Assembly: GCA_964372815.1 (NCBI GenBank) | Contig: CAYJSG010000002.1 | Coordinates: 1 to 43,265, forward strand | Length of the DNA stretch: 43,265 bases | Direction of reading: 5' to 3' | From: Candidatus Woesearchaeota archaeon | GTDB lineage: Archaea; Nanobdellota; Nanobdellia; Pacearchaeales; GW2011-AR1 | Part shown: positions 138-40,891 of the stretch, one piece after another | Position numbering within the stretch: position 1 is the first letter of the stretch | Layout of the letters: each line of letters opens with the position of its first letter | Notes under the pieces: generated by a model | The model's database searches: none | What the model saw: the letters and a program-made list of their open reading frames with translations, nothing else | What the model was told of the DNA's origin: nothing | Position numbers and translations under genes: made by a program

Positions 138-848
138 TTATTTTGCATCCCAAATACTTTCTAGATGTTCAAAATCAGAGTCATAATCAGTATATTTTTT
201 TCTAACACTACCCAATCCAGAAACTTTCAATTGTTCAGGATAAGGAATTTTTGTTCCGAAATACTCATTTAAAATAGGAGCAGTCACATGTGCTGTGGAA
301 AATTCACCAGCTGCTTCAAGCTGACTTAAATTATATACCCCAATAAAACCTTCAGTATAAAATCTTTTTCCAGCATTGATATTATCTCTTACACACTCAA
401 TAACTTCCTGTGAAACAATAGAAAAAAAAGCGCTATAAATTGCTTTATAAATATCACTCATTTGTACGTTTTCTCTTCTTTCTCCCCTAGTTCTAGCCAT
501 AATAGCTCTAGCATCAACAAAAAAATCATCATATGCTCTTACATTATTTAATATACCGCTTCTGATAAGTGTAATGTCTTCCAAACTTGCCCATTGAATT
601 ACTCTTCCTTTCCAGTCAACGTTTTTTTCTTCTCTAGCTATTTCTTCTTCGACCTCTCTCTTTAAAACATCAAGTGGCCCTCTTGTTTTATCAGCTTGTT
701 CAGGATTTCCTCCAAGCAAATTAGGCGCGCTAGCATAGATTATTCTAGGATAACCTCCATCATATCCAGAAAGAATCACTTCACATCTACCATTTTGAGA
801 ATAAACAAACATCACACTAGGATGCGCATTAAGTTGCCTTCTTTCCAT
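138..848 (-). CDS. Hypothetical protein, possible divergent Nudix-fold hydrolase
   Basis: 236-aa ORF. GGNPEQADKTRGPLDVLKREVEEEI resembles a Nudix box (REVEEE core) but has a lengthened loop and no terminal G. A TATA-like box lies 23-32 nt upstream. The product call is tentative. Confidence 0.5.
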   Translation of the reverse strand: MERRQLNAHPSVMFVYSQNGRCEVILSGYDGGYPRIIYASAPNLLGGNPEQADKTRGPLDVLKREVEEEIAREEKNVDWKGRVIQWASLEDITLIRSGILNNVRAYDDFFVDARAIMARTRGERRENVQMSDIYKAIYSAFFSIVSQEVIECVRDNINAGKRFYTEGFIGVYNLSQLEAAGEFSTAHVTAPILNEYFGTKIPYPEQLKVSGLGSVRKKYTDYDSDFEHLESIWDAK

Positions 849-962: not shown

Positions 963-1916
963 ATGAATAATGCAAAAGAAAAAGTCTTGATAACAGGAGG
1001 TTCAGGCTATTTAGGCTCTGTTTTAACAGGACATTTATTAGAAAAAGGCTACGAAGTAACTTGTCTTGATAATTTAATGTACGGACAAAAATCTCTTCTT
1101 ATCTATGCTTCTAATCCAAACTTTAATTTTATTTATGGGGATGCAAGAAACAAAAAATTATTAGAAAAAATTCTTCCAGAATTTGATGTGATTATTCCTT
1201 TAGCAGCAATTGTAGGCATGCCTGTCTGTGACTTAAAACCATTAGAAGCAGAATCAATTAATAGAGATGCAGTAATTTTAATTAATGAACTACGTTCCCT
1301 ACAACAAAAATTAATTTATCCAAATACAAATTCAGGCTATGGCACAAAAACAGGAGAGATGTTTTGCACAGAAGAAACTCCTTTAGAGCCAGTTTCTTTA
1401 TATGGGATAACAAAATGCCAGGCAGAAAGCTCTCTTTTAAGTTCAGGTAAGCCCACAATAGTTCTAAGATTAGCAACTGTTTTTGGCTTATCCCCCAGAA
1501 TGAGAACTGATTTATTAGTTAATGACTTCGTTTACAAGGCAATGAATGATTCTTATATTATAATTTATCAGAAAGACTTCAAAAGAAATTATATTCATAT
1601 TAAAGATGTTGCTCGTGTTTTTGAACATTGTATAATTAATTTTGAAAAAATGAAAAACAATATTTACAATGTTGGTTTAGAAGATGCCAATCTTTCAAAA
1701 GCAGAGCTGGCAGAAAAAATAAGATCTTATATTCCGAAATTTGAAATTGTTTATAAAGAAGTTGGGGAAGATCCTGATAAAAGAAATTATATAGTGTCAA
1801 ATCAAAAAATCCTTAAAACCGGGTTCTCTCCAATTTACTCATTAGACTATGGAATAAAAGAATTAATCAAAGGTTTCTCAATTTTATTAAAAAACGATCC
1901 CTATAAAAATCTCTAA
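963..1916 (+). CDS. NAD-dependent sugar-nucleotide epimerase/dehydratase (extended SDR)
   Basis: N-terminal Rossmann motif ITGGSGYLGS and catalytic YGITK (YxxxK). 317 aa, typical for this family. Confidence 0.85.
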   Translation: MNNAKEKVLITGGSGYLGSVLTGHLLEKGYEVTCLDNLMYGQKSLLIYASNPNFNFIYGDARNKKLLEKILPEFDVIIPLAAIVGMPVCDLKPLEAESINRDAVILINELRSLQQKLIYPNTNSGYGTKTGEMFCTEETPLEPVSLYGITKCQAESSLLSSGKPTIVLRLATVFGLSPRMRTDLLVNDFVYKAMNDSYIIIYQKDFKRNYIHIKDVARVFEHCIINFEKMKNNIYNVGLEDANLSKAELAEKIRSYIPKFEIVYKEVGEDPDKRNYIVSNQKILKTGFSPIYSLDYGIKELIKGFSILLKNDPYKNL

Positions 1917-1917
1917 A

Positions 1918-2490
1918 ATGGAAAAAATAGTCTTTTTAGATAGAGATGGAGTTATAAATGTAGAAAAAGAATTATTGCATGAAAAGTTAGACATGGAGTT
2001 AATTCCTCAATCTGCAGAAGCAATAAGGCTTCTAAATGAAAATAATTATAAAGTTATTATCATAACAAATCAGCCAGTTATAGCAAGAGGTCTTTGCACA
2101 TTAGAAGAGCTAGCAGAAATTCACAAATATATGGGCGCTCTCTTAGCAGAAAAAAAAGCAAGAATAGATAGAATTTATTTTTGCCCGCATCATCCAACAG
2201 TAGGAAATAATTCTTTCTACACCAGAGAATGCGATTGCAGAAAACCAAAACCAGGTTTAATCTTTCAAGCACAAAAAGATTTCAATATAAAAAATTTATC
2301 AGAATGTTATATGATCGGAGATAAAATAGCAGACATAAAAACAGGTTTTCTAGCTGGCTGTAAAACAATCCTTGTTGAAACAGGTTATGGAGGTAATGAA
2401 AGATTTAACGACGCAGTTCCTGATTACAAAGCAAAAGATTTATACGAAGCAGTTACGAATATAATCTTAAAAAATGAAACTCTTAATTAA
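1918..2490 (+). CDS. gmhB: GmhB-like HAD phosphatase (D-glycero-D-manno-heptose 1,7-bisphosphate phosphatase family)
   Basis: HAD motif I FLDRDGVIN, Zn-loop CPHHP...CDCRKPKPG, and GDKIAD motif. The start lies 1 nt after the upstream stop. Confidence 0.8.
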   Translation: MEKIVFLDRDGVINVEKELLHEKLDMELIPQSAEAIRLLNENNYKVIIITNQPVIARGLCTLEELAEIHKYMGALLAEKKARIDRIYFCPHHPTVGNNSFYTRECDCRKPKPGLIFQAQKDFNIKNLSECYMIGDKIADIKTGFLAGCKTILVETGYGGNERFNDAVPDYKAKDLYEAVTNIILKNETLN

Positions 2491-3190
2491 TACGGGCGGC
2501 AGAGGAGAAAGATTAATGCCCTTAACCAAAGATATCCCAAAATCTTTAGTTAAAATAGTTGACAAACCAGTATTACATCATCTAATAAATTGGGCAAAAA
2601 AACAAGATATAAGAGATATAATAATGCTTAATGGCTATAAGGCAGAAAAGATTATAGAATATTTTAAAGATGGGAAGGAGTTTGATATAAATATAGCTCA
2701 TTCAATTGAACCATCTCCATTGGGCAGTGGAGGTTCAATAAAATTTGCAAAGCCTCATATAAATAGCGAGTTTGCTTACATTTCAGGCGATTTATTATGT
2801 GCAATAGATTTTAAAAAAATGTTAATATTTCATAAGAAGAATAAAGCAGACATTACAGTATTAGTGCATAAATCAAGTCATCCTCATGATTCAGATATAT
2901 TAAAGATTAATGAAGAAGGAATGGTTGAGAGATTTATTTCTAAGCATGATGACCATAATGGTGCTGGAGACCTCTCTAATGCTGGTTTGTGTATTATGCA
3001 CCCTAAAATCTTAGACTTGATGGATAAAGAAGTATTTACTCTAGAAACCTATTTATATCCAAGAATAATACAAAACAATTTAGGATTCTTCGCTTACGAT
3101 ACGGATGAATTTATTGCAGATATGGGCACGTTTGACAGACTAAAGAAATGTGAAGATTTTGTAGTAAAAAATTTACATTTGTTTAACTAA
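2474..3190 (+). CDS. Sugar-1-phosphate nucleotidyltransferase (HddC/ManC-like)
   Basis: N-terminal GGRGERLMPLTKDIPKSLV signature of NTP_transferase enzymes. Overlaps the gmhB-like gene by 17 nt. Confidence 0.8.
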   Translation: MKLLINTGGRGERLMPLTKDIPKSLVKIVDKPVLHHLINWAKKQDIRDIIMLNGYKAEKIIEYFKDGKEFDINIAHSIEPSPLGSGGSIKFAKPHINSEFAYISGDLLCAIDFKKMLIFHKKNKADITVLVHKSSHPHDSDILKINEEGMVERFISKHDDHNGAGDLSNAGLCIMHPKILDLMDKEVFTLETYLYPRIIQNNLGFFAYDTDEFIADMGTFDRLKKCEDFVVKNLHLFN

Positions 3191-4051
3191 TCTTCCAAAA
3201 ATCTCTTCAGCCAGATTTTCATGAGCGGCGACAAATCCAACAGCTCTTTTATCAGGATGATAATGTCTAACTTCAAGTCTATCCAACCTATTTATTTCCT
3301 CTCCTTCCATTTCATAAAAGATAACTTTTCCTCCTGCTTCCTCAACAATTAATTTTCCAGCGGCCCAATCCCATGGACATACTAATGGCTGAATCAAAGC
3401 ATCTGCCTTGCCAGCAGCAACTAATCCTAAAGGCAATGCACAAGATCCGTTAGAATTTGTCGTTCTACAGAGATCACTTAATTCATGTACTGTAGCATTA
3501 TGTTTCTTATATTTAGTTAGAAAACAATCAACCCCAAAAATAAGATAAGAATCTTTCAATTCTCTATGAGCGACTTCTATTTTTTTCTTTCCTTTTCTAT
3601 TCTCTAGAAAAGCTCCTTCCCCAAGAGAAGCATAAAAAACCAGCCCGCTATCTATTTTAGGAGCAAAAACAGCCCCCGCTTTATGTTCTAAATTCTCAAC
3701 ATATCCGACAGATATACTCCACTCATAATGTCCAATATTAAAACTACTTGATCCATCAAGTTCATCAATAATATAAACTCCTGAATCTCTCATCCTTTCC
3801 AAAGAATCTGCTTGTATCAATCTTTCTTTGAAATTCTTATCTTTAACATGCTCTTCAGTCATGAATAGGGTATTTTCTCCTCTAAGTTCTTTTAAAATAG
3901 CTGCTTGAGACATATAATCTGCAGCAGTTACTATAGCATGATGCCCGACATATTTGTCATTTTTTGTAACTACTTTTCTAGCTGAATAATCTGCAATTTT
4001 CTCCCCTCCAGCTATCGCCGCTCCTATACAATGATTCAAAAAATCAGTCAT
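3173..4051 (-). CDS. Inositol monophosphatase / FBPase family phosphatase (paralog 1)
   Basis: Motifs IIDELDGSSSF (the DPxDGT-type metal site) and CPWDWAAG. 292 aa. Confidence 0.85.
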   Translation of the reverse strand: MTDFLNHCIGAAIAGGEKIADYSARKVVTKNDKYVGHHAIVTAADYMSQAAILKELRGENTLFMTEEHVKDKNFKERLIQADSLERMRDSGVYIIDELDGSSSFNIGHYEWSISVGYVENLEHKAGAVFAPKIDSGLVFYASLGEGAFLENRKGKKKIEVAHRELKDSYLIFGVDCFLTKYKKHNATVHELSDLCRTTNSNGSCALPLGLVAAGKADALIQPLVCPWDWAAGKLIVEEAGGKVIFYEMEGEEINRLDRLEVRHYHPDKRAVGFVAAHENLAEEIFGRLVKQM

Positions 4052-4073
4052 TTAATATTTCATGTAAATTCAT

Positions 4074-4083
4074 TTTTAAATAT
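4074..4083 (-). promoter_or_regulatory. TATA-like box for CDS 3173..4051
   Basis: Minus strand reads ATATTTAAAA, 23-32 nt upstream of the ATG at 4051. Confidence 0.5.
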
Positions 4084-4112
4084 TATTGTGGTCTAGATTA
4101 ATTCTCCATAAT

Positions 4113-4122
4113 CTTTATATAA
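4113..4122 (+). promoter_or_regulatory. TATA-like box upstream of uORF/CDS 4174..6210
   Basis: CTTTATATAA lies 26-35 nt upstream of the ATG at 4148, but about 55-60 nt upstream of the main ATG at 4174. Confidence 0.4.
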
Positions 4123-4147
4123 CATCTCCACAATCCCAATTGTTAAA

Positions 4148-4177
4148 ATGAAAGGAGAAAAAGAGCGTAAATTATGA
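4148..4177 (+). other. Candidate 9-codon upstream ORF (MKGEKERKL) whose stop overlaps the main ATG (ATGA)
   Basis: ATG at 4148 and TGA at 4175-4177, overlapping the ATG at 4174-4176. It sits at the spacing from the TATA box that other genes in the window use for their start codon. Confidence 0.25.
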
Positions 4178-6210
4178 AAGCAATTATTCTCGCGGGAGGG
4201 TTAAGTTCAGGATTAAAATCAGGCGCAGGAGATGTCTCAAGACCAATGGCAATGATCGCGGGTCAGCCATTTCTCGAGCATCAAATCAGGTCTCTTAGAG
4301 ACTTCGGAATAAAAGAGATTATTTTAGCCGTCTATAATACAGCCAACACAATAAAATCCTATTTTGGAAATGGTTTGAGATTGGCAGTAGATATAACCTA
4401 TTCTGAAGAAGACTTTCCTCTGGGAACCGCAGGAGCAATTAAAAAGGCAGAGAAATATATTGACGACACTTTCCTAGTATTAAATGGAGACTCGTATTCA
4501 AACGTAGATATTAATGAATTAATAGAATTCCATAATTCAAAAAGAAGTAATTTCACTCTATCTCTAACAAAAATATTAGACACCTCTCGTTATGGAAATG
4601 TGATCTTGAAAGAAAACAAGATTATAGAATTCTTAGAAAAAACAGAATCACCAAATCCCAATGCACTTATAAACAGCGGAGTTTATGTTTTTGAACCAAA
4701 AATATTTGATTATATAGAACCAGAAAAGAACATTTCTTTAGAAAAAGAGATATTTCCCAGATTAGCAAAAGAAAATCTTCTATTCGGATACATTTACAAT
4801 GGTTACTTTAGAGACATAGGGCAACCAGAAACTTATCAAAAATTCAAGGAAGATGTTATTAATACTCTTCAACTTAAAGAGATACATAAAGTAAGAGATG
4901 CAATGAACAAAATAACAAAGAGTGGAATAAATATCGTCTTGGTTACAAACGAGGATAAAAAACTTCTTGGAGTTGTTAATGATAGAATAATGAAAGAATA
5001 CATGCTTAGAGGAGGAAATCTGGACGACACTTTAAGCAAGGCAATGATTCGAGATCCAATAATCGCAAAAGAGTCAGAAGGAAAAGACAGAATTTCAGAA
5101 CTATTAATGGCAGGGATAAATCATCTGCCAGTTGTAGACGACTTTAGAAGAATAAAGGACGTTGAATTTAGAGTAGAAAAGCTAAAAACAGAAACTTTTC
5201 CAGTAATCAGAGGAAGAGCACCTTTAAGAATAAGTTTTGCTGGTGGAGGTACAGATATTCAAAATTTCTTTGAAAAATACGGAGGAGTTGTCATAAATGC
5301 TACAATAGACAAATATTGTCATGCCACTCTAATTAAAAGAGCGGACTCAAAAATAATAATAAACTCAGATTTAGGAGAAGATCTAATAATAGATTCAAGA
5401 AGCGATTTACATTATGACGGTAGATTTGATTTAATCAAATCAGTTATAAATATTCTCAAGCCTGATTTCGGTTTTGAATTATATCTTCATAATGATTTAC
5501 CTCCAGGTAGGGGCCTAGGTTCTTCAGCTTCTTTATCCACCCTAATAATAAGCCTCTTAAGCTACTTGCAGGATGCACATTACGACGATTATAAAATTGC
5601 TGAATTAGCTTATAAAGTAGAAAGAGAAGAGCTAAAAATAAAAGGGGGTTGGCAGGATCAGTATGCAGCAGTAACAGGAGGATTTAATTTTATGGAATTT
5701 AATGGAGAAAAAAAAATTATTTATCCCTTAAAATTAAAAGAAGAAGTTATAAACGAATTAAATCATCATATGCTTCTTTGTTATGTAGGAAAATCTCATA
5801 ATTCAGGAGACATTCACAAAAGTCAAGAAAGATCCTTTGAACAAAATGAATCATTAGTTGCTAATTACAAAGAATTAAAAAAAATAGCTATCGAAATAAA
5901 AGACGCTCTTTTGACAAACCAGATAGAAAAAATAGGAACTCTTTTAAATGAAGCCTGGGAAAATAAAAGAAAGTTAGAATCGTCAATTTCAGATCAAATT
6001 ATAGATACTATTTACACGATAGGCTTAAAAAACGGTGCTCATGGAGGAAAATTACTTGGAGCAGGTGGTGGAGGCTATATTTTGTTTTTCTATTCTCCAA
6101 AAAAAAGAAACCAGCTTACAAAAGCATTAGAAAAATCAGGAGGTCAGATAATGAATTTTAACTTTGAGTTTAAAGGAATTCAATTATGGCCTGCAAAACA
6201 AAAAGCCTAG
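4174..6210 (+). CDS. Fusion protein: sugar-1-P nucleotidyltransferase + CBS pair + GHMP sugar kinase (HddA/fucokinase-like)
   Basis: N-terminus ILAGGLSSG...PFLEH (NTP_transferase). Central tandem CBS-like repeats (about residues 236-335). C-terminus PLRISFAGGGTD and PPGRGLGSSASL (GHMP motifs), plus GAGGGGY. Confidence 0.85.
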   Translation: MKAIILAGGLSSGLKSGAGDVSRPMAMIAGQPFLEHQIRSLRDFGIKEIILAVYNTANTIKSYFGNGLRLAVDITYSEEDFPLGTAGAIKKAEKYIDDTFLVLNGDSYSNVDINELIEFHNSKRSNFTLSLTKILDTSRYGNVILKENKIIEFLEKTESPNPNALINSGVYVFEPKIFDYIEPEKNISLEKEIFPRLAKENLLFGYIYNGYFRDIGQPETYQKFKEDVINTLQLKEIHKVRDAMNKITKSGINIVLVTNEDKKLLGVVNDRIMKEYMLRGGNLDDTLSKAMIRDPIIAKESEGKDRISELLMAGINHLPVVDDFRRIKDVEFRVEKLKTETFPVIRGRAPLRISFAGGGTDIQNFFEKYGGVVINATIDKYCHATLIKRADSKIIINSDLGEDLIIDSRSDLHYDGRFDLIKSVINILKPDFGFELYLHNDLPPGRGLGSSASLSTLIISLLSYLQDAHYDDYKIAELAYKVEREELKIKGGWQDQYAAVTGGFNFMEFNGEKKIIYPLKLKEEVINELNHHMLLCYVGKSHNSGDIHKSQERSFEQNESLVANYKELKKIAIEIKDALLTNQIEKIGTLLNEAWENKRKLESSISDQIIDTIYTIGLKNGAHGGKLLGAGGGGYILFFYSPKKRNQLTKALEKSGGQIMNFNFEFKGIQLWPAKQKA

Positions 6211-6298
6211 AAAGCGATAAATCAACTATTCTCATAGAAATACCAGATCTGTATAATATCGAGTAACTTAAAAATTAATGTTTTTAATTACACAAATA

Positions 6299-6306
6299 CT
6301 TTTAAA
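6299..6306 (+). promoter_or_regulatory. TATA-like box for CDS 6328..7212
   Basis: CTTTTAAA about 28 nt upstream of the ATG at 6328. No SD. Confidence 0.5.
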
Positions 6307-6327
6307 CCATATCTTCATTCTCTTACA

Positions 6328-7212
6328 ATGGATTATGAATCAGAGTTAGAATTTACAATAGAAACGGCACGATTAGCAGGCAATTTATTAATGGAGAATT
6401 TTGGAGGACAACATAGTCCACAATGGACTTCTGAAACAAAAGAAACCAATTTTAAAATAGCAATGGACAAAAAAAGTGATAATTTAATAAGAACAGCTAT
6501 AAAGCAAAGTTTCCCAGAAGACGATATTTATTCAGAAGAAGCAGAGGATGTAGACAGAGGCAGGGAAAGAAAATGGGTTTTCGATCCAATAGACGGAACA
6601 GAACCGTATGCTAACCATACAAGTAATAATTGGAGTGTAGCTATAGCATTAATCAAAGATAAAACTCCTGTTCTTGGAGTTGTTTATATGCCACAAAGAG
6701 GAGAACTCTATCGCGCGGTTACAGGTAATGGTGCTTATTGCAATAATATTCCTATCAGAGTTTCACAAGAATCTAGCATCAACAAAGTACGTATGGGTGT
6801 TGATGGTGGTAAGAAGATAGATGGCTGGTTCGATGCAAATTCCCTTAGTATATTAAAAAATAGACTTGAGCCAAATATTGCAATCCTTCTAGGTTTTGCT
6901 TGCGCTTCTGTTCCATTATGTCAGGTTGCGAGCGGCTTCCCTGATTCAAGACTGCCAAGAGTAGGAAGATTAGAGGCCTATCTCGGTGGAGCTTTAGAGC
7001 CATGGGATATGGCAGCAGAAGTTCCAATAATCAGAGAAGTAGGCGGAAAGGTTACACATCTATCAGGAAAAGAATGGCAGTTTAGTAAATATAAACAAGG
7101 TGATCCTACAATTCTTGCTGCAAATCCAGTTCTACACCAAAAGTTAATAGATTATCTTTCGGCGGAGATAGATCTTTATTACACCAAAAACGGGTTTGCA
7201 ATTTACAAATAA
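6328..7212 (+). CDS. Inositol monophosphatase family phosphatase (paralog 2)
   Basis: Motifs WVFDPIDGTEPY and EPWDMAAE. 294 aa. Confidence 0.85.
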   Translation: MDYESELEFTIETARLAGNLLMENFGGQHSPQWTSETKETNFKIAMDKKSDNLIRTAIKQSFPEDDIYSEEAEDVDRGRERKWVFDPIDGTEPYANHTSNNWSVAIALIKDKTPVLGVVYMPQRGELYRAVTGNGAYCNNIPIRVSQESSINKVRMGVDGGKKIDGWFDANSLSILKNRLEPNIAILLGFACASVPLCQVASGFPDSRLPRVGRLEAYLGGALEPWDMAAEVPIIREVGGKVTHLSGKEWQFSKYKQGDPTILAANPVLHQKLIDYLSAEIDLYYTKNGFAIYK

Positions 7213-8674: not shown

Positions 8675-9802
8675 ATGAGAATACAATTCGGAGAATTAAA
8701 GATTGGTGAAACAGCAAAAAAGCATTTGCAAGATGTAATAAATACAAATTGGGCATCTGGAGGCCCTAAAGTCAAACTCTTTGAAGAACAGTGGAGCAAA
8801 TTATTTGGCTACAAATATAGCGTTGCTATGAGCTCTGGCACAGACGCTGACATAAATGCCTGCGCAGCGCTCTATGACTTCGGTGCAAATAGAGGAGATG
8901 AAATTATAGTTCCAGCCTTATCTTTTATAGCAACCTCAAATGCAGTTTTAGCCGCCGGCCTTAAACCAGTGTTTGTAGATATAGAAAGACACACATTAAA
9001 TATCAATCCAAAAAAAATCGAGGATAAGATAACAAAAAAAACAAAAGCAATTATGGTTGTCCATACAATGGGCAAACCATGCGATATGGACAAAATAAAT
9101 GAAATTGCAAAAAAGAATAATTTATTTATTATTGAAGATTCGTGTGAGTCGCATGGAGCAAAATACAAGGGAAAATTTGTAGGTCATTTAGGTGACATGG
9201 CAGCATTTAGTTTCTATGCAGCACATTTAATATGTTGTGGCGAAGGAGGCATGGTCTCAACAAACAATGAAAAATTAGCAGAAATCCTGCAATCAATAAG
9301 AAGTCACGGTAGAAAACCTGGAACATTATATTTTGACCATATTCGTTTCGGTATAAATTCCAAGATGAATGATATGGAAGCCTCTCTTGGATTACAGGGA
9401 GTAGAAGAATTTTGGGCTACTTTCAATAAAAGAAAAGAAAACTTATATTATTTATTAAACAAATTAGAAGATTTAGAAAAATTTGCTTTCTTTAATATAG
9501 AAGAAGAGCATGAAGTAGTCACTCCTCATGCTTTCACTATAACATTAAAAGACTCAAAATACAATTGCTCTGAACTATACTCCTTCTTGGAATCCAATGG
9601 AGTCATGTGCAAAAGAAATTTTGGTTCAATACCAACACAACATAAAGCGTTTGCTTTTATGGGACATAAATTTGGAGAATTTCCAGAATCAGAATATGTT
9701 GGAAATAATGGTTTACATTTTGGAATCCATCAATATCTAACAAGAGAAGATTTAGACTATATTTCAGACTTGGTTCATAAATATTTTGCTAAATTTAATT
9801 AA
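8675..9802 (+). CDS. DegT/DnrJ/EryC1/StrS-family PLP sugar aminotransferase
   Basis: 375 aa with SSGTDA, IVPALSFIATSNAV and EDSCESHGA, the family's layout with a conserved active-site region. Confidence 0.88.
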   Translation: MRIQFGELKIGETAKKHLQDVINTNWASGGPKVKLFEEQWSKLFGYKYSVAMSSGTDADINACAALYDFGANRGDEIIVPALSFIATSNAVLAAGLKPVFVDIERHTLNINPKKIEDKITKKTKAIMVVHTMGKPCDMDKINEIAKKNNLFIIEDSCESHGAKYKGKFVGHLGDMAAFSFYAAHLICCGEGGMVSTNNEKLAEILQSIRSHGRKPGTLYFDHIRFGINSKMNDMEASLGLQGVEEFWATFNKRKENLYYLLNKLEDLEKFAFFNIEEEHEVVTPHAFTITLKDSKYNCSELYSFLESNGVMCKRNFGSIPTQHKAFAFMGHKFGEFPESEYVGNNGLHFGIHQYLTREDLDYISDLVHKYFAKFN

Positions 9803-9803
9803 T

Positions 9804-10661
9804 ATGCCACTAAAAAGCTCTCTTCTGGTTGGAGAAATACACCCACAAGCATTATCTCTATTAAAGAAAAATACAATCTTAACAAAAAAAACTCAAGATG
9901 AATTTGATAAAATATCTTTATCAGAAGAATATGAAATTTTAATAATTAGAACATTTACAAAAATATCAGAGAAAGAATTAAATAAACTTCCAAATCTAAA
10001 ATATATAGTAAGTTGTAGCGTAGGAATAGACAACATAAATTTAGAAGAATTAAAGAAGAGAGATATATCTTTAATTTATTGCCCAGGCACTAATGCCAAT
10101 AGCGTAGCAGAACACACTCTTTATCTTATACTTTCTCTTCTAAGAGAAAGCACCCCGCAATTTATAGAATTAAAAAACAAAACCATGGGAATAATAGGAT
10201 TTGGAAACATAGGAAAATTAGTTGCAAGAAAGTTATCTGGTTTTGAGGTTAAAATAATTGCTCATGATATAATAGAACAAAATAAAGACATATTAAAGGA
10301 ATTAAAAGTAGAAATCAAAGATTTAGATTATCTTGTAAAAAATTCAGATATCGTAACAATTCACGTTAATTTAAATGAACATACAAAATCTATGATAAAC
10401 GAAACAATATTTTCAAAAATGAAGGACAATATTTTCTTAATAAATACATCAAGAGCAGAAATTATAGACGAAATATCTTTAATGAAACACAACAACTTAG
10501 GAAAATTTAAAGGCATAGCCCTAGACGTCTATTCAGAATATCTAGAAAAAAACCTTAAAGGAAATATAATTTTAACACCACATGTAGCTTCACAAGGACA
10601 AGACTCATTCAGAGAAATGTGTACAAAGCCAATAAGCGAACTATTAAAAATTATGGGTTAA
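9804..10661 (+). CDS. D-isomer-specific 2-hydroxyacid dehydrogenase family protein
   Basis: NAD fold GIIGFGNIGKLVARKL, then INTSRAEIID, ALDVY and TPHVAS. ATG at 9804 is preferred over the TTG at 9786. Confidence 0.85.
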   Translation: MPLKSSLLVGEIHPQALSLLKKNTILTKKTQDEFDKISLSEEYEILIIRTFTKISEKELNKLPNLKYIVSCSVGIDNINLEELKKRDISLIYCPGTNANSVAEHTLYLILSLLRESTPQFIELKNKTMGIIGFGNIGKLVARKLSGFEVKIIAHDIIEQNKDILKELKVEIKDLDYLVKNSDIVTIHVNLNEHTKSMINETIFSKMKDNIFLINTSRAEIIDEISLMKHNNLGKFKGIALDVYSEYLEKNLKGNIILTPHVASQGQDSFREMCTKPISELLKIMG

Positions 10662-28409: not shown

Positions 28410-29414
28410 ATGCTGAATAAAAAGAAAATTAAGAAAATACTAGTAATAAAAAATGACAAAATTGGAGATATGATTCTTTCAACAAATATATTCAGAGAAC
28501 TTAAAAAAAATTTTCCACAAGCAGACATAACAGTAGTAGCGTCAAACTCTAATAAGCCGATTATAGAAAAAAATAAGAATATAAAAAAGATAATAACCCT
28601 GGACTATCCTCCAAATTCATTTCAGGATTACATTAATTATTATAAAATATCAAAAAAAATTAAGAATGAAAACTTTGATCTCGGTATAGATTTAAGAGGG
28701 AGTATAATAAATATCTTTTTCCTGTTAACTTTGCCAAAAATAAAATATAAGATAGGTTTCTACAATAGATTTTTCTCAAAATTTTTTCTGGATTATGGAT
28801 ATAAAAAAAATAGAATAAATCAGCACGTTACTTTTCAGAGAATAGACTTAATGAATAAATCGTTAAATACAAATTCAAAAAATTATTGGCCAGAAATTGC
28901 AGTAGATGAAGAAGATATAAAAATAGCAGACAATATTACAAAAAAGTATAAGCTTAAAAAGTTTATTTCTATTGTTCCAGATGCAAGCCTGCCAGACAAA
29001 CAATGGCCTATTCAAAATTGGGATGAAATAATAAGATATCTTAAAGATTCATATAAAAATTATGGAATTCTGATTTTAGGGATAAATAAAAAGAAAATTG
29101 ATTTCTTAATAAAAAGAAATCCTCATATTATTAATCCTGCACAATTACTTCCACTTAGAGTAATATATTTAATATTTAAAAGAAGCTCTTTAGTAATAAC
29201 TCAAGATGGTGGCCCAATGCATCTTGCATGGGCAGGAAAATCAAGTCTTATAACTTTAATTTCCGGCTATAAATATAGATCAAAAAAACTGAATAAATTT
29301 AACTATATAAGGCCATTAAACAAAAATTCTATGGTCCTCTATAATAATATGGATAAAATAAAAATTGAGGAGGTAAAATCAGCAATTGACAAAATGCTAC
29401 TTGACAAAAGGTAA
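28410..29414 (+). CDS. Glycosyltransferase family 9 (heptosyltransferase-like)
   Basis: N-terminus KILVIKNDKIGDMILSTNIFRELKKNFPQADITVVA is typical of GT9. The C-terminal half contains ITQDGGPMHLA. Confidence 0.75.
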   Translation: MLNKKKIKKILVIKNDKIGDMILSTNIFRELKKNFPQADITVVASNSNKPIIEKNKNIKKIITLDYPPNSFQDYINYYKISKKIKNENFDLGIDLRGSIINIFFLLTLPKIKYKIGFYNRFFSKFFLDYGYKKNRINQHVTFQRIDLMNKSLNTNSKNYWPEIAVDEEDIKIADNITKKYKLKKFISIVPDASLPDKQWPIQNWDEIIRYLKDSYKNYGILILGINKKKIDFLIKRNPHIINPAQLLPLRVIYLIFKRSSLVITQDGGPMHLAWAGKSSLITLISGYKYRSKKLNKFNYIRPLNKNSMVLYNNMDKIKIEEVKSAIDKMLLDKR

Positions 29415-36076: not shown

Positions 36077-36598
36077 TCAGGGGTTTATAAATCTTTCTTC
36101 AGAATCTCTCTTAGATAAAATAGGCTCTTTAACAGGCCATTCAATTCCAAAAAAAGGATCATCCCAACGATAACTAAACTGTTTATTCTCAATATTATAA
36201 ACAGTTGATTGTTTATAATTATAAATAGCTTCTTCGCTTAAGATCAAAAAAGCATTGCCATAATCTGGAGGAGCTAAAATTTGTTTTCTTTCTTTTTCAC
36301 TTAAAATAATTTTTATCCATTTTCCAAAATCAGAAGAATTTTTATCACAATTCACAATAACCTGATAAATCTCTCCTTTTAAGCAGGAAATTAATTTCCA
36401 GTTTTTATCGTCTCCATGAATTCCCCTTAATACATTCTTCTTGCTGAAGATAACACTATCCTGCACAAATTTCAGGCCTTTAAATTTATCTCCAAAAACT
36501 TTTTCATCATATAGAGATAAATACTCTCCTCTATGATCTTCAAAAGGCTCTAATTCAATCAAATAAACGCCTTTTAAGTCTGTCTCACTAATTTTCAT
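36077..36598 (-). CDS. rmlC: RmlC-like cupin, NDP-4-keto-6-deoxy-sugar 3,5-epimerase family
   Basis: LKGVYLIELEPFEDHRGEY, VLRGIHGD, and KLISCLKGEIYQVIVNCD...FGKW. 173 aa. Confidence 0.8.
   Translation of the reverse strand: MKISETDLKGVYLIELEPFEDHRGEYLSLYDEKVFGDKFKGLKFVQDSVIFSKKNVLRGIHGDDKNWKLISCLKGEIYQVIVNCDKNSSDFGKWIKIILSEKERKQILAPPDYGNAFLILSEEAIYNYKQSTVYNIENKQFSYRWDDPFFGIEWPVKEPILSKRDSEERFINP
36084..36091 (-). promoter_or_regulatory. TATA-like box for CDS 34344..36062, embedded in the 3' end of the upstream CDS
   Basis: TTTATAAA, 22-29 nt upstream of the ATG at 36062. It lies inside CDS 36077..36598. Confidence 0.4.
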
Positions 36599-36681: not shown

Positions 36682-37311
36682 ATGGGCGACCCTAATTTAA
36701 AACAAGTATATGATGAAATGAGCTCTTATTTCGATGAAAAAAGAACAAAAAAATATTTTTTTCTTCTTTCCAATTATTTAAGAAAAATAATTCCTCCAAA
36801 ATCAAAAGTTTTAGAAATAGGCTCCGGAACAGGAGGTTATTGTATCTCGCTAGCAAGACGTGGTTGTATATGCAAAGGCCTTGATTATAGCGAAAAAATG
36901 GTGAAAGTTGCTAAAAATAATAATAAATTAGCAAAAACAACTTGTGTCTTTAAGATAGCAGATGTAGAAAAAAACATTCCATTTAAAGAAAAATTTGACT
37001 TTATAATCTCAATGGATAGCTGGGAATTTTTTCCAAATCCTAAAGCAGTTTTAAAAAATGTTAATAAATCATTAAAACAAAATGGTTTCTTTTTTATATT
37101 TACCCCAAATATGTTTTTTGCTCCGCCTATTATTATAGCAGAAAAATTAAAAATAAAGAAACTTTCTCCAGCCTATACATATTTTAATTCTTTCAAATAT
37201 AAAGTTAAAAGACTAGCCTCTCAAACAGGTTTTAAACTTATTAAGCACGATTACATTTTTAATTACATGACAATTATATTCTTTTTAAGAAAAAATGATA
37301 ATACAAATTGA
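36682..37311 (+). CDS. Class I SAM-dependent methyltransferase
   Basis: Motif I VLEIGSGTGGY. 209 aa. Confidence 0.8.
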   Translation: MGDPNLKQVYDEMSSYFDEKRTKKYFFLLSNYLRKIIPPKSKVLEIGSGTGGYCISLARRGCICKGLDYSEKMVKVAKNNNKLAKTTCVFKIADVEKNIPFKEKFDFIISMDSWEFFPNPKAVLKNVNKSLKQNGFFFIFTPNMFFAPPIIIAEKLKIKKLSPAYTYFNSFKYKVKRLASQTGFKLIKHDYIFNYMTIIFFLRKNDNTN

Positions 37312-39844: not shown

Positions 39845-40891
39845 ATGAAAAGAGCTCTGATAACCGGCGTTACAGGACAAGACGGAGCATATTTATCAAA
39901 ATTCCTTTTAGAAAAAGGCTATGAAGTATACGGAACTTTTCGCAGAACATCAAATCCAAACTTCTGGCGATTACAATCATTAAACTGCCTCAACAAAATC
40001 CATCTAATTCCAGCTGATTTAAGCGATTCTTCATCTATCATCGAGGCTATAAAAATATCAGATCCTGATGAGATATATAATCTAGCTGCTCAAAGCTTTG
40101 TCGAGGCTAGTTTTCACCAACCACTAGCAACAGCAGATATTACCGGATTAGCTTTATTAAGGATATTAGAGAAGGTTAGACAAATAAAAGCTAATGCAAA
40201 GGTTTATCAGGCGTCTACCTCCGAATTATATGGCGACGGGAATACCAAACCACTGAATGAAGAGTCTAAATTTTCTCCTTCTTCTCCCTATGCCTCTGCA
40301 AAATTATTTGCTCATCATACCGCAAAGAATTATAGAAAAGCTTATGGAATTTTTGTTTGTAACGGAATATTATTCAATCATGAAAGTGAGTTACGCGGAT
40401 TAGAATTTGTAACGAGAAAAGTTAGCAACGCCGTGGCCAGGATTAAATTAGGATTACAGAAAGAATTGAAACTTGGAAATTTAGAAGCAAAAAGAGACTG
40501 GGGATATGCACCAGATTACGTAGCTAGTATGTGGTTAATGCTACAGCAAAACGAGCCAGATGATTATGTTATAGCAAGTGGAAAAGCGCATTCTGTTAAA
40601 GAATTTACTGAAAAAGCATTTGCTGTTCTTGGATTAGACTGGAAACAATATGTGAAAGTGGATGAAAGATTTATAAGATTAGAAGACGTGATGCATTTAG
40701 AAGGAGATTATTCAAAAGCAAAGCAAGTTTTAGGTTGGGAACCAAAAACAAAATTTGATGAATTAGTTAAAATAATGGTTGAGGAAGATTACAAAAAATG
40801 GAAAGCCTGGCTTGCAGGAGAGAGATTTTCATGGGATGCTCCTAATTTTACAGAAGATTTGCATATTATCACAAGAACAAAGAAATTCTAA
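39845..40891 (+). CDS. gmd: GDP-mannose 4,6-dehydratase
   Basis: ALITGVTGQDGAYLSKFLLEKGYEVYGTFRRTSNPNFWRL, YASAKL, and LFNHESELRG. 348 aa. Confidence 0.92.
   Translation: MKRALITGVTGQDGAYLSKFLLEKGYEVYGTFRRTSNPNFWRLQSLNCLNKIHLIPADLSDSSSIIEAIKISDPDEIYNLAAQSFVEASFHQPLATADITGLALLRILEKVRQIKANAKVYQASTSELYGDGNTKPLNEESKFSPSSPYASAKLFAHHTAKNYRKAYGIFVCNGILFNHESELRGLEFVTRKVSNAVARIKLGLQKELKLGNLEAKRDWGYAPDYVASMWLMLQQNEPDDYVIASGKAHSVKEFTEKAFAVLGLDWKQYVKVDERFIRLEDVMHLEGDYSKAKQVLGWEPKTKFDELVKIMVEEDYKKWKAWLAGERFSWDAPNFTEDLHIITRTKKF

What the first reader, a model, noticed from the sequence alone, without database searches (positions are those of the whole stretch)
1918..7212. Nucleotidyltransferase-CBS-GHMP kinase fusion flanked by two IMPase paralogs in a heptose-like activation cluster that lacks GmhA
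Seen in the sequence:
- The 678-aa product of 4174-6210 joins an NTP_transferase domain, a CBS pair and an HddA/fucokinase-type GHMP kinase (PLRISFAGGGTD, GLGSSASL).
- It is bracketed by two divergent inositol-monophosphatase-family genes (3173-4051 on the minus strand, 6328-7212 on the plus strand).
- It is preceded by a GmhB-like phosphatase with the Zn loop CPHHP...CDCRKPKPG and a second stand-alone nucleotidyltransferase.

Established knowledge: GDP-D-glycero-D-manno-heptose synthesis uses GmhA, HddA, GmhB and HddC. Kinase plus pyrophosphorylase fusions such as Bacteroides Fkp perform one-protein salvage of a free sugar to its NDP form. CBS pairs usually sense adenosyl ligands.

What is unusual:
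- There is no SIS-domain isomerase (GmhA) in the window.
- A regulatory CBS module sits between the two catalytic halves.
- There are two nucleotidyltransferases and three phosphatases.

Inference: this may be an energy-gated salvage or activation route for a heptose or another rare sugar, with the IMPase-family proteins acting on sugar bisphosphates.
Basis: partly seen in the sequence, partly recalled or inferred. Interest (0 to 1): 0.6.

Follow-up and report, generated by a model that had tools for sequence, protein, structure and literature searches.

The report
Archaeal GDP-heptose gene cluster, fused enzyme
A tiny DPANN archaeon carries a gene cluster that most likely makes and then modifies the activated seven-carbon sugar GDP-heptose for its surface glycans; it is built around a three-part fused enzyme that is common in these archaea but has never been studied, and one of whose halves seems to be decaying here because a separate gene does the same job.

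Summary
The 678-aa protein joins an HddC-like nucleotidyltransferase, a CBS pair and an HddA-like GHMP kinase. The architecture is not rare. More than 120 clusters of full-length relatives exist, nearly all in DPANN archaea, and this scan has flagged the fusion at least 19 times on other DNA. I found no paper on it.

The sugar is most likely D-glycero-D-manno-heptose:
- The gene just upstream (963-1916) is 54% identical to Cj1427, the GDP-heptose C4-dehydrogenase of Campylobacter jejuni, and is the fusion's most conserved neighbour.
- The window also holds a near-textbook GmhB, a heptose-type 3/3,5-epimerase and a GT9 heptosyltransferase-family gene.
- The "aminotransferase" at 8675-9802 carries His in place of the catalytic Lys, as ColD/E1 3-dehydratases do. 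This points to a 3-deoxy-heptose product.

Points specific to this window:
- The fusion's transferase half has lost its GxGTR...K signature and diverges three times faster than the other two domains. The stand-alone transferase is intact, and in other genomes its family is fused to GmhB, so it probably does the work.
- IMPase 1 is a recurrent companion of these modules. Its role is unknown.
- No GmhA or any SIS protein is in this 86.6%-complete assembly, though GmhA lies beside the fusion in some relatives.
- The CBS pair lacks the canonical ribose-binding motif.

Verdict: a new variant of a known pathway.

The parts
963..1916 (+). [quoted passage not shown] First gene of the operon SDR-gmhB-NT2.
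   Evidence: phmmer against PDB 6vo6/6vo8 gives E 2.2e-103. Foldseek on the AF2 model gives 54% identity and TM 0.90-0.96, with entry titles naming Cj1427; the next SDRs are only 20-25% identical. Orthologues of 50-75% identity lie beside the fusion in 9 other archaeal loci.
1918..2490 (+). GmhB-type HAD phosphatase (heptose 1,7-bisphosphate 7-phosphatase)
   Evidence: NF006506 scores 165.6 bits (cut-off 178) and TIGR00213 scores 137.8 (cut-off 149.6). Motifs DRDGV, TNQ, the Zn loop CPHHP...CDCRKPKPG and GDKIADI are present. It starts 1 nt after the SDR stop codon.
2474..3190 (+). NT2: stand-alone sugar-1-phosphate nucleotidyltransferase with an intact catalytic signature. Probably the working HddC of this locus.
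   Evidence: PF00483 E 6.8e-26. GGRGERL...PKS and EPSPLGSGG are intact. It overlaps the end of gmhB by 17 nt. Its family is fused to GmhB orthologues in P0180 and P0197.
3173..4051 (-). IMPase-family phosphatase 1: a recurrent companion of HddA/HddC modules, substrate unknown
   Evidence: PF00459 E 8.7e-29. Motifs DELDGS and WDWAAG are present. Its closest homologues share contigs with fusion genes. It is adjacent to the fusion in L009 and lies inside the G046 heptose cluster.
4174..4869 (+). Fusion protein, residues 1-232: HddC-like nucleotidyltransferase domain with a degenerate N-terminal catalytic loop
   Evidence: PF00483 E 1.5e-32; HddC model 148.6 bits. The guanine-binding Glu (E79 in EDFPLGTAGA) is kept. 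GxGTR...PKP reads LSSGL...SRP. Identity to P0003 is 80.9% here, against 93-94% in the other two domains.
4870..5202 (+). Fusion protein, residues 233-343: CBS pair (Bateman module), non-canonical
   Evidence: PF00571 30.2 bits. MJ0100 and MJ1225 CBS pairs match at E 8e-6. The AF2 secondary structure fits. The ribose-binding motif is not met: GVVNDRI aligns with GIITSWD of MJ0100.
5203..6210 (+). Fusion protein, residues 344-678: HddA-type GHMP kinase (anomeric kinase of heptose-7-phosphate), catalytically intact
   Evidence: HddA model 295.7 bits. PDB 4n3o, 3k85 and 4usk (WcbL) match at E 1e-60 to 1e-71. Foldseek against WcbL gives TM 0.90. The WcbL residues R13, D22, S118-120, Q162 and D163 correspond to R352, D361, S450/451/453, Q494 and D495, which are invariant or nearly so.
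6328..7212 (+). IMPase-family phosphatase 2, accessory gene, role unknown
   Evidence: PF00459 E 1.2e-43. The nearest solved relatives are dual IMPase/FBPases (2pcr, 2p3n). Homologues occur in only 11 of 121 genomes of the order. In G099 and G101 they are on the same contig as an HddA-like gene.
8675..9802 (+). DegT-family enzyme with His at the catalytic-Lys position: ColD/E1-type NDP-4-keto-sugar 3-dehydratase
   Evidence: PF01041 E 2.6e-98; the best NCBIfam hit is RfbH. The motif SFYAAH aligns with the Lys of aminotransferase 7b0m. The same His is present in six DPANN orthologues next to fusions. The Lys-to-His rule is given in PMC8987622.
9786..10661 (+). D-2-hydroxyacid dehydrogenase family gene overlapping the dehydratase gene by 17 nt. 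Link to the pathway is uncertain.
   Evidence: PF02826 and PF00389. It is not conserved in related loci.
28410..29414 (+). GT9 (heptosyltransferase-family) glycosyltransferase: candidate user of the activated heptose
   Evidence: PF01075 E 1.3e-23. Heptosyltransferase I/II/III models score 52-83 bits, below their cut-offs.
36077..36598 (-). RmlC-fold epimerase most similar to the C. jejuni GDP-4-keto-heptose 3- and 3,5-epimerases
   Evidence: The top 8 PDB hits are C. jejuni capsular heptose epimerases (8dcl, 8dak, 7m14, 8db5, 8dco, 7an4...) at E about 2e-39, ahead of the dTDP RmlCs. An orthologue (52%) sits directly upstream of SDR-gmhB-fusion in G021.
39845..40891 (+). GDP-mannose 4,6-dehydratase family enzyme
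   Evidence: PF16363 402 bits. PDB 2z1m E 5.8e-112. Paralogues of 30-36% identity sit beside the fusion in G112, G099, G094 and G120.

Best explanation

**Proposed steps**
1. D-glycero-D-manno-heptose-7-P is phosphorylated at O1 by the kinase half of the fusion (the HddA step).
2. GmhB (1918-2490) removes the 7-phosphate.
3. A guanylyltransferase makes GDP-heptose (the HddC step).
4. The Cj1427-like SDR (963-1916) oxidises C4.
5. The His-type DegT enzyme (8675-9802) removes the 3-OH, giving a GDP-3-deoxy-4-keto-heptose.
6. Epimerase, reductase and glycosyltransferase genes elsewhere in the island finish and use the sugar.

**What is particular to this genome**
- The fusion's own transferase half has lost the catalytic Arg/Lys loop and evolves under relaxed constraint. 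The translationally coupled stand-alone NT2 most likely performs the HddC step.
- The CBS pair is a real Bateman fold without the usual ligand-binding motif. It is more likely a structural or oligomerisation element, or a sensor of something other than an adenosyl ligand.
- IMPase 1 belongs to the module. Its likeliest substrate is a sugar bisphosphate: heptose-1,7-bisP as an alternative to GmhB, or sedoheptulose-1,7-bisP to supply sedoheptulose-7-P.
- The isomerase step (GmhA) is unaccounted for in the assembly.

**Status of the claims**
- Shown here: domain identities, orthology to enzymes with solved structures, conservation of catalytic residues, gene neighbourhoods, and the decay of the NT domain.
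- Inferred: every substrate and every reaction.
For: **Kinase half is HddA-like and intact**
- HddA model 295.7 bits.
- WcbL, 4n3o and 3k85 match at E 1e-60 to 1e-71, TM 0.9.
- All five mutationally essential WcbL positions are conserved (PMC4691232).

**GmhB**
- It scores just under the equivalog cut-offs and has all HAD motifs and the Zn loop.

**Tailoring genes of the heptose type**
- The SDR is 54% identical to Cj1427, TM 0.9 or higher. [quoted passage not shown]
- This SDR is the most conserved neighbour of the fusion.
- The RmlC-like gene's best solved relatives are the C. jejuni GDP-heptose epimerases.
- A GT9-family gene is in the window.

**GmhA in relatives**
- A GmhA 52% identical to the Helicobacter cetorum GmhA used as query abuts the fusion in G120, and one lies 10 kb away in G094.
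- GmhA is in the cluster in the Methanosarcinales and Flavobacteriaceae members.

**Substrate supply**
- The genome has transaldolase and transketolase, so it can make sedoheptulose-7-P.

**3-dehydratase**
- His replaces the catalytic Lys in this gene and in six DPANN orthologues.

**NT domain decay**
- The signature is lost only here among 13 locus fusions.
- Identity to P0003 is 80.9% in the NT domain against 92.8% and 94.0% in the other two (p = 7e-7).
- 6 of 12 fusions that share a contig with an NT2-type gene lack Arg13, against 10 of 108 others.

**NT2 and GmhB**
- Natural fusions of the two exist in both orders.

**Nucleotide**
- The guanine-binding Glu of EXXPLGTGGA is kept in both transferases.
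Against: **GmhA**
- No GmhA or any SIS protein is in the assembly.
- Of nine DPANN genomes with the CBS-type fusion, only two have a strong GmhA, two have a divergent SIS_2, and five have none. All six non-CBS HddA-like genes listed in the order sample (G046, G093, G101, G007, G063, G104) have GmhA within about 5 kb; three of these directly abut it. The heptose-7-P source is therefore unexplained, and the CBS clade could use another substrate.

**Family cut-offs and phylogeny**
- HddA, HddC and GmhB model scores all fall below NCBI's equivalog cut-offs.
- The CBS-bearing kinases form a separate clade from plain HddA (SH-aLRT 99).
- Outside DPANN, all five CBS-clade loci carry a NeuB-type gene, immediately beside the kinase in the four bacterial loci and in the Methanosarcinales locus. 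This hints at a different end use in the ancestor.

**NT domain**
- Arg13-to-Gly also occurs in family members that keep PKP and carry a nearby Arg or Lys. Loss of transferase activity is therefore not certain.

**No biochemical evidence.** No biochemistry exists for any member.
Confidence: 0.62

Rival explanations
1. Hexose bypass. The kinase acts on mannose-6-P (or another hexose-6-P), GmhB removes the 6-phosphate, and the product is GDP-mannose or a related GDP-hexose. The Cj1427-like, ColD-like and GMD enzymes then modify it. This would explain why GmhA is so often missing.
For: - GmhA is missing from 5 of 9 genomes with the CBS-type fusion.
- WcbL binds mannose in its sugar site.
- A bona fide GDP-mannose 4,6-dehydratase in the window needs GDP-mannose.
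- Both NT domains score as high or higher against a mannose-1-P guanylyltransferase model than against HddC.
- The CBS clade is separate from plain HddA.
Against: - The genome already has a PGM/PMM-family mutase.
- The conserved partners are heptose-specific by closest homology: Cj1427 at 54% identity, heptose epimerases, GmhB and GT9.
- GmhA is adjacent in G120 and is in the cluster in L007 and L014.
Confidence: 0.13
2. Salvage. An Fkp-like one-protein route takes a free sugar scavenged from the host to its NDP form, gated by the CBS pair sensing adenosyl ligands.
For: - DPANN archaea depend on hosts.
- There is no isomerase in the assembly.
- Kinase plus pyrophosphorylase in one chain resembles Fkp.
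Against: - GmhB is translationally linked in the same cluster, and NT2-GmhB fusions exist. Both imply a bisphosphate intermediate, so the two fused activities are not consecutive.
- The fused NT half has a degenerate catalytic loop here.
- The CBS repeats lack the canonical ribose-binding motif.
- Similarity to Fkp is remote: 15-22% identity.
Confidence: 0.08
3. Precursor supply for a sialic-acid-like (ulosonic) sugar, as the context of the bacterial CBS-kinase relatives suggests.
For: All five non-DPANN members of the CBS-kinase clade have a NeuB-fusion gene in the locus, beside the kinase in the four bacterial loci and in the Methanosarcinales locus. In H. cetorum the cluster also has a second CMP-ulosonate synthetase.
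Against: - No NeuB gene is in this genome.
- None is in any of the 14 DPANN loci. There the partners are the Cj1427-like SDR and a 3-dehydratase.
Confidence: 0.04

Closest known systems
[quoted passage not shown]
   Same: - The kinase, phosphatase, guanylyltransferase, C4-dehydrogenase and epimerase all have their closest characterised homologues in this pathway.
- Catalytic residues of WcbL and the guanine-binding Glu of HddC are conserved.
   Different: - HddC and HddA are fused through a CBS pair.
- The fused HddC half is degenerate here and is duplicated by a stand-alone gene.
- GmhA is missing from the assembly.
- IMPase-family genes are embedded in the cluster.
- The host is a DPANN archaeon.
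- Scores fall below the NCBI equivalog cut-offs.
HldE (RfaE), the bifunctional heptose-7-P kinase / heptose-1-P adenylyltransferase of the ADP-heptose pathway
   Same: The logic is the same: the two nucleotide-using, non-consecutive steps are fused, with GmhB acting between them.
   Different: - The folds are unrelated: ribokinase plus cytidylyltransferase families, against GHMP plus NTP_transferase here.
- The anomer and nucleotide differ: ADP and beta, against GDP and alpha.
- HldE has no CBS module.
- This is an analogue, not a homologue. The statement about HldE rests on my own knowledge and on the introduction of PMC4691232.
Fkp (Bacteroides L-fucokinase / GDP-fucose pyrophosphorylase)
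   Same: A GHMP anomeric kinase and a sugar-1-P guanylyltransferase sit in one chain. The order is also NT then kinase.
   Different: - Only 15-22% identity.
- Fkp performs two consecutive steps on a free sugar. Here a phosphatase step lies between them.
- Fkp has no CBS pair.
ColD/E1 PLP/PMP-dependent 3-dehydratases, and the C. jejuni HS:5 3,6-dideoxy-heptose pathway
   Same: The DegT fold carries His in place of the catalytic Lys, and the gene sits next to GDP-heptose genes.
   Different: - It is paired with a C4-dehydrogenase (Cj1427 type) instead of a 4,6-dehydratase. This predicts 3-deoxy, not 3,6-dideoxy, heptoses.
- That combination has so far been reported only as an in-vitro construction (PMC10680097).

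Membership tests
[quoted passage not shown] | GHMP kinase fold closest to solved HddA/WcbL structures | tested here: met
   phmmer E 7.7e-71 to 2.4e-60 against 4n3o, 3k85 and 4usk. Foldseek TM 0.90 against WcbL.
[quoted passage not shown] | Catalytic and substrate residues R13, D22, S118-120, Q162, D163 (WcbL numbering) | tested here: met
   These correspond to R352, D361, S450/S451/S453, Q494 and D495, which are invariant or at least 90% conserved in 40 homologues.
[quoted passage not shown] | Score above the curated NCBIfam equivalog cut-off (NF049969, 600 bits) | tested here: not met
   295.7 bits. The CBS-bearing kinases form their own clade apart from plain HddA.
[quoted passage not shown] | Genomic association with GmhA (supply of heptose-7-P) | tested here: inconclusive
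   There is none in this assembly, which is 86.6% complete. GmhA is adjacent in G120, 10 kb away in G094, and in the cluster in L007 and L014. It was not found in G099, G021, G002 or G003.
[quoted passage not shown] | ATP-dependent 1-O-phosphorylation of heptose-7-P | not testable with these tools
   This needs an enzyme assay.
HddC (heptose-1-P guanylyltransferase), fused N-terminal domain | EXXPLGTGGA motif with the guanine-binding Glu | tested here: met
   EDFPLGTAGA is present, and E79 is invariant in the family.
HddC (heptose-1-P guanylyltransferase), fused N-terminal domain | N-terminal G-x-G-T-R ... P-K catalytic loop of sugar nucleotidyltransferases | tested here: not met
   The loop reads GGLSSGL...VSRPM where the family consensus is GGFGTRL...VPKPM. 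The model has pLDDT below 50 at residues 11-18.
HddC (heptose-1-P guanylyltransferase), stand-alone NT2 | Intact G-x-G-x-R ... K loop and EXXPLGxGG motif; functional link to GmhB | tested here: met
   GGRGERL...PKS and EPSPLGSGG are present. It overlaps gmhB by 17 nt. NT2-GmhB fusions exist in both orders. Its score against the HddC model (95.6 bits) is below the cut-off of 300.
CBS pair (Bateman module) | Two tandem CBS repeats with a beta-alpha-beta-beta-alpha fold | tested here: met
   PF00571 scores 30.2 bits against a cut-off of 24. MJ0100 and MJ1225 match. The AF2 secondary structure fits.
CBS pair (Bateman module) | Canonical ribose-phosphate motif G-h-h-T/S-x-x-D/N for adenosyl ligands | tested here: not met
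   CBS1 has GVVNDRI aligned with GIITSWD of MJ0100, so T becomes N and D becomes I. CBS2 has no such motif. The family consensus is LLGVxNDRI.
GmhB (heptose 1,7-bisphosphate 7-phosphatase, HAD-IIIA) | HAD motifs I-IV plus the Zn-binding CxH...CxC loop | tested here: met
   DRDGV, TNQ, CPHHP...CDCRKPKPG and GDKIAD are present. Scores of 165.6 (cut-off 178) and 137.8 (cut-off 149.6) fall just under the cut-offs.
Cj1427-type GDP-heptose C4-dehydrogenase | Close sequence and structural orthology to Cj1427, set apart from other SDR epimerases and dehydratases | tested here: met
   54% identity, TM 0.90-0.96, E 1e-42. The next hits are 20-25% identical. Activity is not testable here.
ColD/E1-type 3-dehydratase | His replaces the Schiff-base Lys of DegT aminotransferases | tested here: met
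   SFYAAH aligns with the Lys of 7b0m. The same His is present in six DPANN orthologues, whereas the window's other DegT gene (37295-38380) keeps Lys. The rule is from PMC8987622.
Inositol monophosphatase / FBPase family (both flanking genes) | Pfam PF00459 above cut-off, with metal-binding EE, DPxDG(T/S) and WDxAAG motifs | tested here: met
   Scores are 101.3 and 150 bits against a cut-off of 27. Motifs are seen. No equivalog model (HisN, CysQ, SuhB, FBPase/IMPase) reaches its cut-off.
Fkp-type bifunctional salvage enzyme | The two fused activities are consecutive and act on a free sugar | tested here: not met
   GmhB in the operon and NT2-GmhB fusions imply an intervening phosphatase step. 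Identity to Fkp is only 15-22%.

The most novel reading that the evidence does not exclude
[quoted passage not shown] The route would be the conserved trio of NT-CBS-kinase fusion, Cj1427-type C4-dehydrogenase and His-type 3-dehydratase. Two steps would be filled in a non-canonical way: an IMPase-family enzyme acting as a heptose- or sedoheptulose-bisphosphate phosphatase, and an entry into heptose-7-P that does not use GmhA.
Probability: 0.22. Interest if true: 0.6.

Novelty: new variant of a known kind. Interest (0 to 1): 0.4.

Why it matters
- Heptose glycans are regarded mainly as a bacterial trait (LPS cores, capsules, S-layers). This family shows that a large group of host-dependent archaea carries the GDP-heptose route in compact, fused form and couples it to tailoring enzymes known from a human pathogen's capsule.
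- The window gives a natural example of a bifunctional enzyme losing one half after a stand-alone paralogue took over. It also gives a concrete candidate, IMPase 1, for an unassigned phosphatase role in heptose metabolism.
- If the 3-deoxy-heptose prediction holds, it adds a new natural sugar and a ready enzyme set for making it.
- The practical weight is modest: the chemistry is an extension of known steps.

Tried and rejected
**Tool that was closed**
Gene contexts of the protein-database homologues could not be fetched. I inferred shared contigs from identical longest-contig lengths.

**Readings I dropped**
- IMPases as irrelevant bystanders. This was my first reading, because only L009 among the species-representative loci had one. 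I dropped it for IMPase 1 after the contig matches and the G046 cluster.
- IMPase 1 as a replacement for GmhA. G046 has both.
- The conserved protein at 138-848 as a non-homologous isomerase. It occurs in loci that lack GmhA. However, it has no Pfam hit, and the protein-atlas lead points to a divergent Nudix hydrolase, which fits a GDP-sugar hydrolase better.
- A PtmE/legionaminic-acid (GDP-GlcNAc) reading. No NeuB is in the genome. I could not obtain a PtmE sequence to compare.
- A di-myo-inositol-phosphate reading of NT2 plus IMPase plus CDP-alcohol transferase. Not pursued: NT2 is fused to GmhB elsewhere.

**Searches that gave nothing**
- Literature searches for the architecture returned nothing relevant.
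- The papers on the Cj1427 structure, GDP-heptose biosynthesis and the ColD structure were not held.

Full report
**1. Observation**

- Pfam and NCBIfam assign the 678-aa product of 4174-6210 an NTP_transferase domain (residues 1-232), a CBS signal, and GHMP kinase N and C domains. The HddA equivalog model aligns over residues 344-672 (295.7 bits).
- Residues 230-345 match the solved CBS pairs of MJ0100 and MJ1225 (E 8e-6).
- An alignment-based AlphaFold model (pLDDT 88.3, pTM 0.83) shows two CBS-like units between the catalytic domains.
- The GmhB-like protein has all HAD motifs and the Zn loop.
- The two IMPase-family proteins are 23% identical and keep their metal-binding motifs.
- No SIS-domain gene is in the window or in the whole assembly. 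The assembly is 1.0 Mb in 139 contigs and 86.6% complete.

**2. Organism and spread of the fusion**

- The closest relatives are MAGs labelled Nanoarchaeota, Woesearchaeota or Pacearchaeota, that is, DPANN archaea.
- More than 120 clusters of full-length relatives (55-89% identical, same three domains) exist.
- In a sample of 121 genomes of the same order, 6 carry the full fusion and 3 carry a direct NT-kinase fusion without CBS.
- A Methanosarcinales MAG has the same three-part protein.
- In Helicobacter cetorum and a Flavobacteriaceae MAG the gene is split into NT and CBS-kinase. Bacteriovoracia and Sediminibacterium MAGs also have CBS-kinase.
- On a kinase-domain tree, all CBS-bearing kinases form one clade (SH-aLRT 99) next to plain HddA-type kinases. 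The archaeal three-part proteins form one subclade (SH-aLRT 92; midpoint root, quick search).
- This scan has already noted the same fusion on at least 18 other genomes.
- Literature searches found no study of it.

**3. Which sugar**

- *Kinase.* The kinase half is closest to the solved heptokinases 4n3o, 3k85 and WcbL. All residues whose mutation kills WcbL (R13, D22, S118-120, Q162, D163; PMC4691232) are conserved here as R352, D361, S450/451/453, Q494 and D495.
- *Upstream SDR (the strongest new evidence).* The gene at 963-1916 hits PDB 6vo6/6vo8 at E 2e-103. Its model superposes on them with 54% identity and TM 0.90-0.96. All other SDRs are 20-25% identical. [quoted passage not shown]
- *Conservation of the SDR.* Orthologues of 50-75% identity sit beside the fusion in nine other archaeal loci. 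The SDR cluster is the most frequent neighbour (14 of 19 loci).
- *Other heptose-type genes in the window.* An RmlC-fold protein has as its eight best solved relatives the C. jejuni GDP-4-keto-heptose 3- and 3,5-epimerases. There is also a GT9 heptosyltransferase-family gene and a GDP-mannose-4,6-dehydratase-family gene.
- *GmhA in relatives.* A GmhA 52% identical to the H. cetorum GmhA used as query abuts the fusion in G120, lies 10 kb away in G094, and is inside the cluster in the Methanosarcinales and Flavobacteriaceae loci.
- *Substrate supply.* The genome has transaldolase, transketolase and a PGM/PMM-family mutase, so sedoheptulose-7-P is available.

**4. The downstream 'aminotransferase' is a 3-dehydratase type**

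- The DegT-family gene at 8675-9802 has RfbH (E1) as its best NCBIfam hit.
- In the alignment to aminotransferase 7b0m it places His where the Schiff-base Lys should be (SFYAAH).
- Six DPANN orthologues next to fusions share this His. The window's other DegT gene (37295-38380) keeps Lys.
- Replacement of the catalytic Lys by His defines the ColD/E1/SpnQ 3-dehydratases (PMC8987622).
- A Cj1427-type dehydrogenase plus a 3-dehydratase would give GDP-D-glycero-3-deoxy-4-keto-heptose. PMC10680097 reports that compound from an in-vitro mixture of Cj1427 and the HS:5 dehydratase.
- Inference only: the dehydratase regenerates its cofactor from glutamate and so yields alpha-ketoglutarate, which Cj1427 needs as its oxidant. 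The two steps could therefore be coupled.

**5. Two nucleotidyltransferases: redundancy with decay**

- Both transferases keep the guanine-binding Glu of the HddC motif (PMC6981941).
- The fused domain reads GGLSSGL...VSRPM where the family has GGFGTRL...VPKPM. The Gly, Thr and Arg of the signature loop and the following Pro are replaced, and the Lys is replaced by Arg. All 12 other locus fusions are intact.
- Against its closest relative (P0003, 89% overall), the NT domain is 80.9% identical, against 92.8% (CBS) and 94.0% (kinase). In the rest of the family, NT is about as conserved as the kinase (57% and 62%). Fisher p = 7e-7, or 1e-4 without the first 30 residues.
- NT2 has the intact loop and overlaps gmhB by 17 nt. 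It belongs to a DPANN family of about 60 clusters. That family is fused to GmhB orthologues in both orders: P0180 (46% identical to this GmhB) and P0197 (55%).
- Twelve fusions share a contig length with an NT2-type gene. Six of these lack Arg/Lys13, against 10 of 108 others (about p = 0.001). The rows are related, and contig identity is inferred from length.
- I read this as NT2 doing the HddC step and the fused NT half decaying. Some members with Gly13 keep PKP and a nearby Arg, so residual activity cannot be excluded.

**6. The IMPases**

- *IMPase 1, contig sharing.* In the species-representative loci, only L009 has an IMPase 1 orthologue, directly downstream of the fusion. In the protein database, however, its closest homologues (53-79% identity) share contig lengths with fusion genes in eight cases, and with L009's contig.
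- *IMPase 1, order sample.* The only true orthologue (51%, G046) lies between GmhA and an NT-kinase fusion. That genome has no GmhB detectable with this window's GmhB as query.
- *IMPase 2.* Homologues occur in 11 of 121 genomes. In G099 and G101 they are on the same contig as an HddA-like gene.
- *Nearest solved relatives.* For both, these are dual IMPase/fructose-1,6-bisphosphatases.
- *Reading.* The family is an accessory, island-borne gene here, and IMPase 1 is tied to the heptose module. The substrate is not known. Candidates are heptose-1,7-bisP (as a substitute for GmhB) or sedoheptulose-1,7-bisP (as a supply of sedoheptulose-7-P). G120 and G094 have neither GmhB nor these IMPases, so the complementarity is only partial.

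**7. The missing GmhA**

- Non-CBS HddA-like genes in the order sample have GmhA within about 5 kb in all six cases listed (G046, G093, G101, G007, G063, G104); in G007, G063 and G104 the two genes directly abut.
- Among nine DPANN genomes with the CBS-type fusion, two have a strong GmhA, two have a divergent SIS_2 protein, and five have none.
- Incompleteness can explain single cases but hardly five. This remains unexplained. It keeps a hexose-6-P substrate, or an unknown isomerase, in play.

**8. The CBS pair**

- The fold is real.
- The canonical ribose-binding motif is not met in either repeat (family consensus).
- A conserved N-D-R triplet suggests some function. I cannot say which.

**9. 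Verdict**

- The heptose reading is supported and extended to the tailoring steps.
- The salvage and energy-gating parts are not supported.
- The IMPase link is real for IMPase 1 but remains unexplained.
- This is a new variant of a known pathway, in a family the scan has met repeatedly. The window-specific additions are the decaying transferase half, the NT2-GmhB link, the His-type dehydratase and the IMPase association.

Noticed in passing
L010:9989-16052; L014:10001-14537; L007:5705-12061; also L011 and L020: Outside DPANN, every CBS-kinase locus has a NeuB-family synthase gene, beside the kinase in the four bacterial loci and in the Methanosarcinales locus. The synthase is fused to an AP_endonuc_2 TIM barrel or to a formyltransferase. 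In H. cetorum the gene also sits beside a second CMP-ulosonate synthetase, within a pseudaminic-acid island. This may be an undescribed ulosonic-acid route that uses heptose-type genes.
   Followed up: partly
window 138-848 (-): A 236-aa protein with no Pfam hit, divergent from the SDR gene. Homologues (27-30% identity) occur in five other fusion loci, three copies in L006, and all of those loci lack GmhA. The protein-atlas features point to a divergent Nudix hydrolase (REVEEE core). It may be a GDP-sugar hydrolase.
   Followed up: partly
L001:16931-18213; L002:6454-8885; L088:3475-5366; six further DPANN loci: A split TPP-dependent E1-like pair (E1_dh plus Transket_pyr) recurs next to the fusion in 9 loci. 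A cupin-HAD fusion (468 aa in L002) recurs in 5 loci. These may be branched-chain or two-carbon sugar tailoring enzymes. Neither is present in this window.
   Followed up: no
L083 (G001:C9:92903-96340): In the genome that holds locus L001, a divergent SIS_2 protein (244 aa) sits between a transaldolase/FSA-family gene and a second HddA-like GHMP kinase. This looks like a separate sugar-phosphate module, reminiscent of octose/heptose routes.
   Followed up: no
window 9786-10661 (+): A D-2-hydroxyacid dehydrogenase family gene overlaps the 3-dehydratase gene by 17 nt. Cj1427-type enzymes turn alpha-ketoglutarate into 2-hydroxyglutarate, so a recycling role is conceivable. The gene is not conserved in related loci.
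   Followed up: no
G046, G093, G101 (L097:10543-12333; L099:8671-10377; L098:6411-8108): A second fused form, NT directly joined to the kinase without CBS (about 600 aa), exists in the same order. In all three genomes GmhA and a GMD-like SDR lie within 5 kb.
   Followed up: partly
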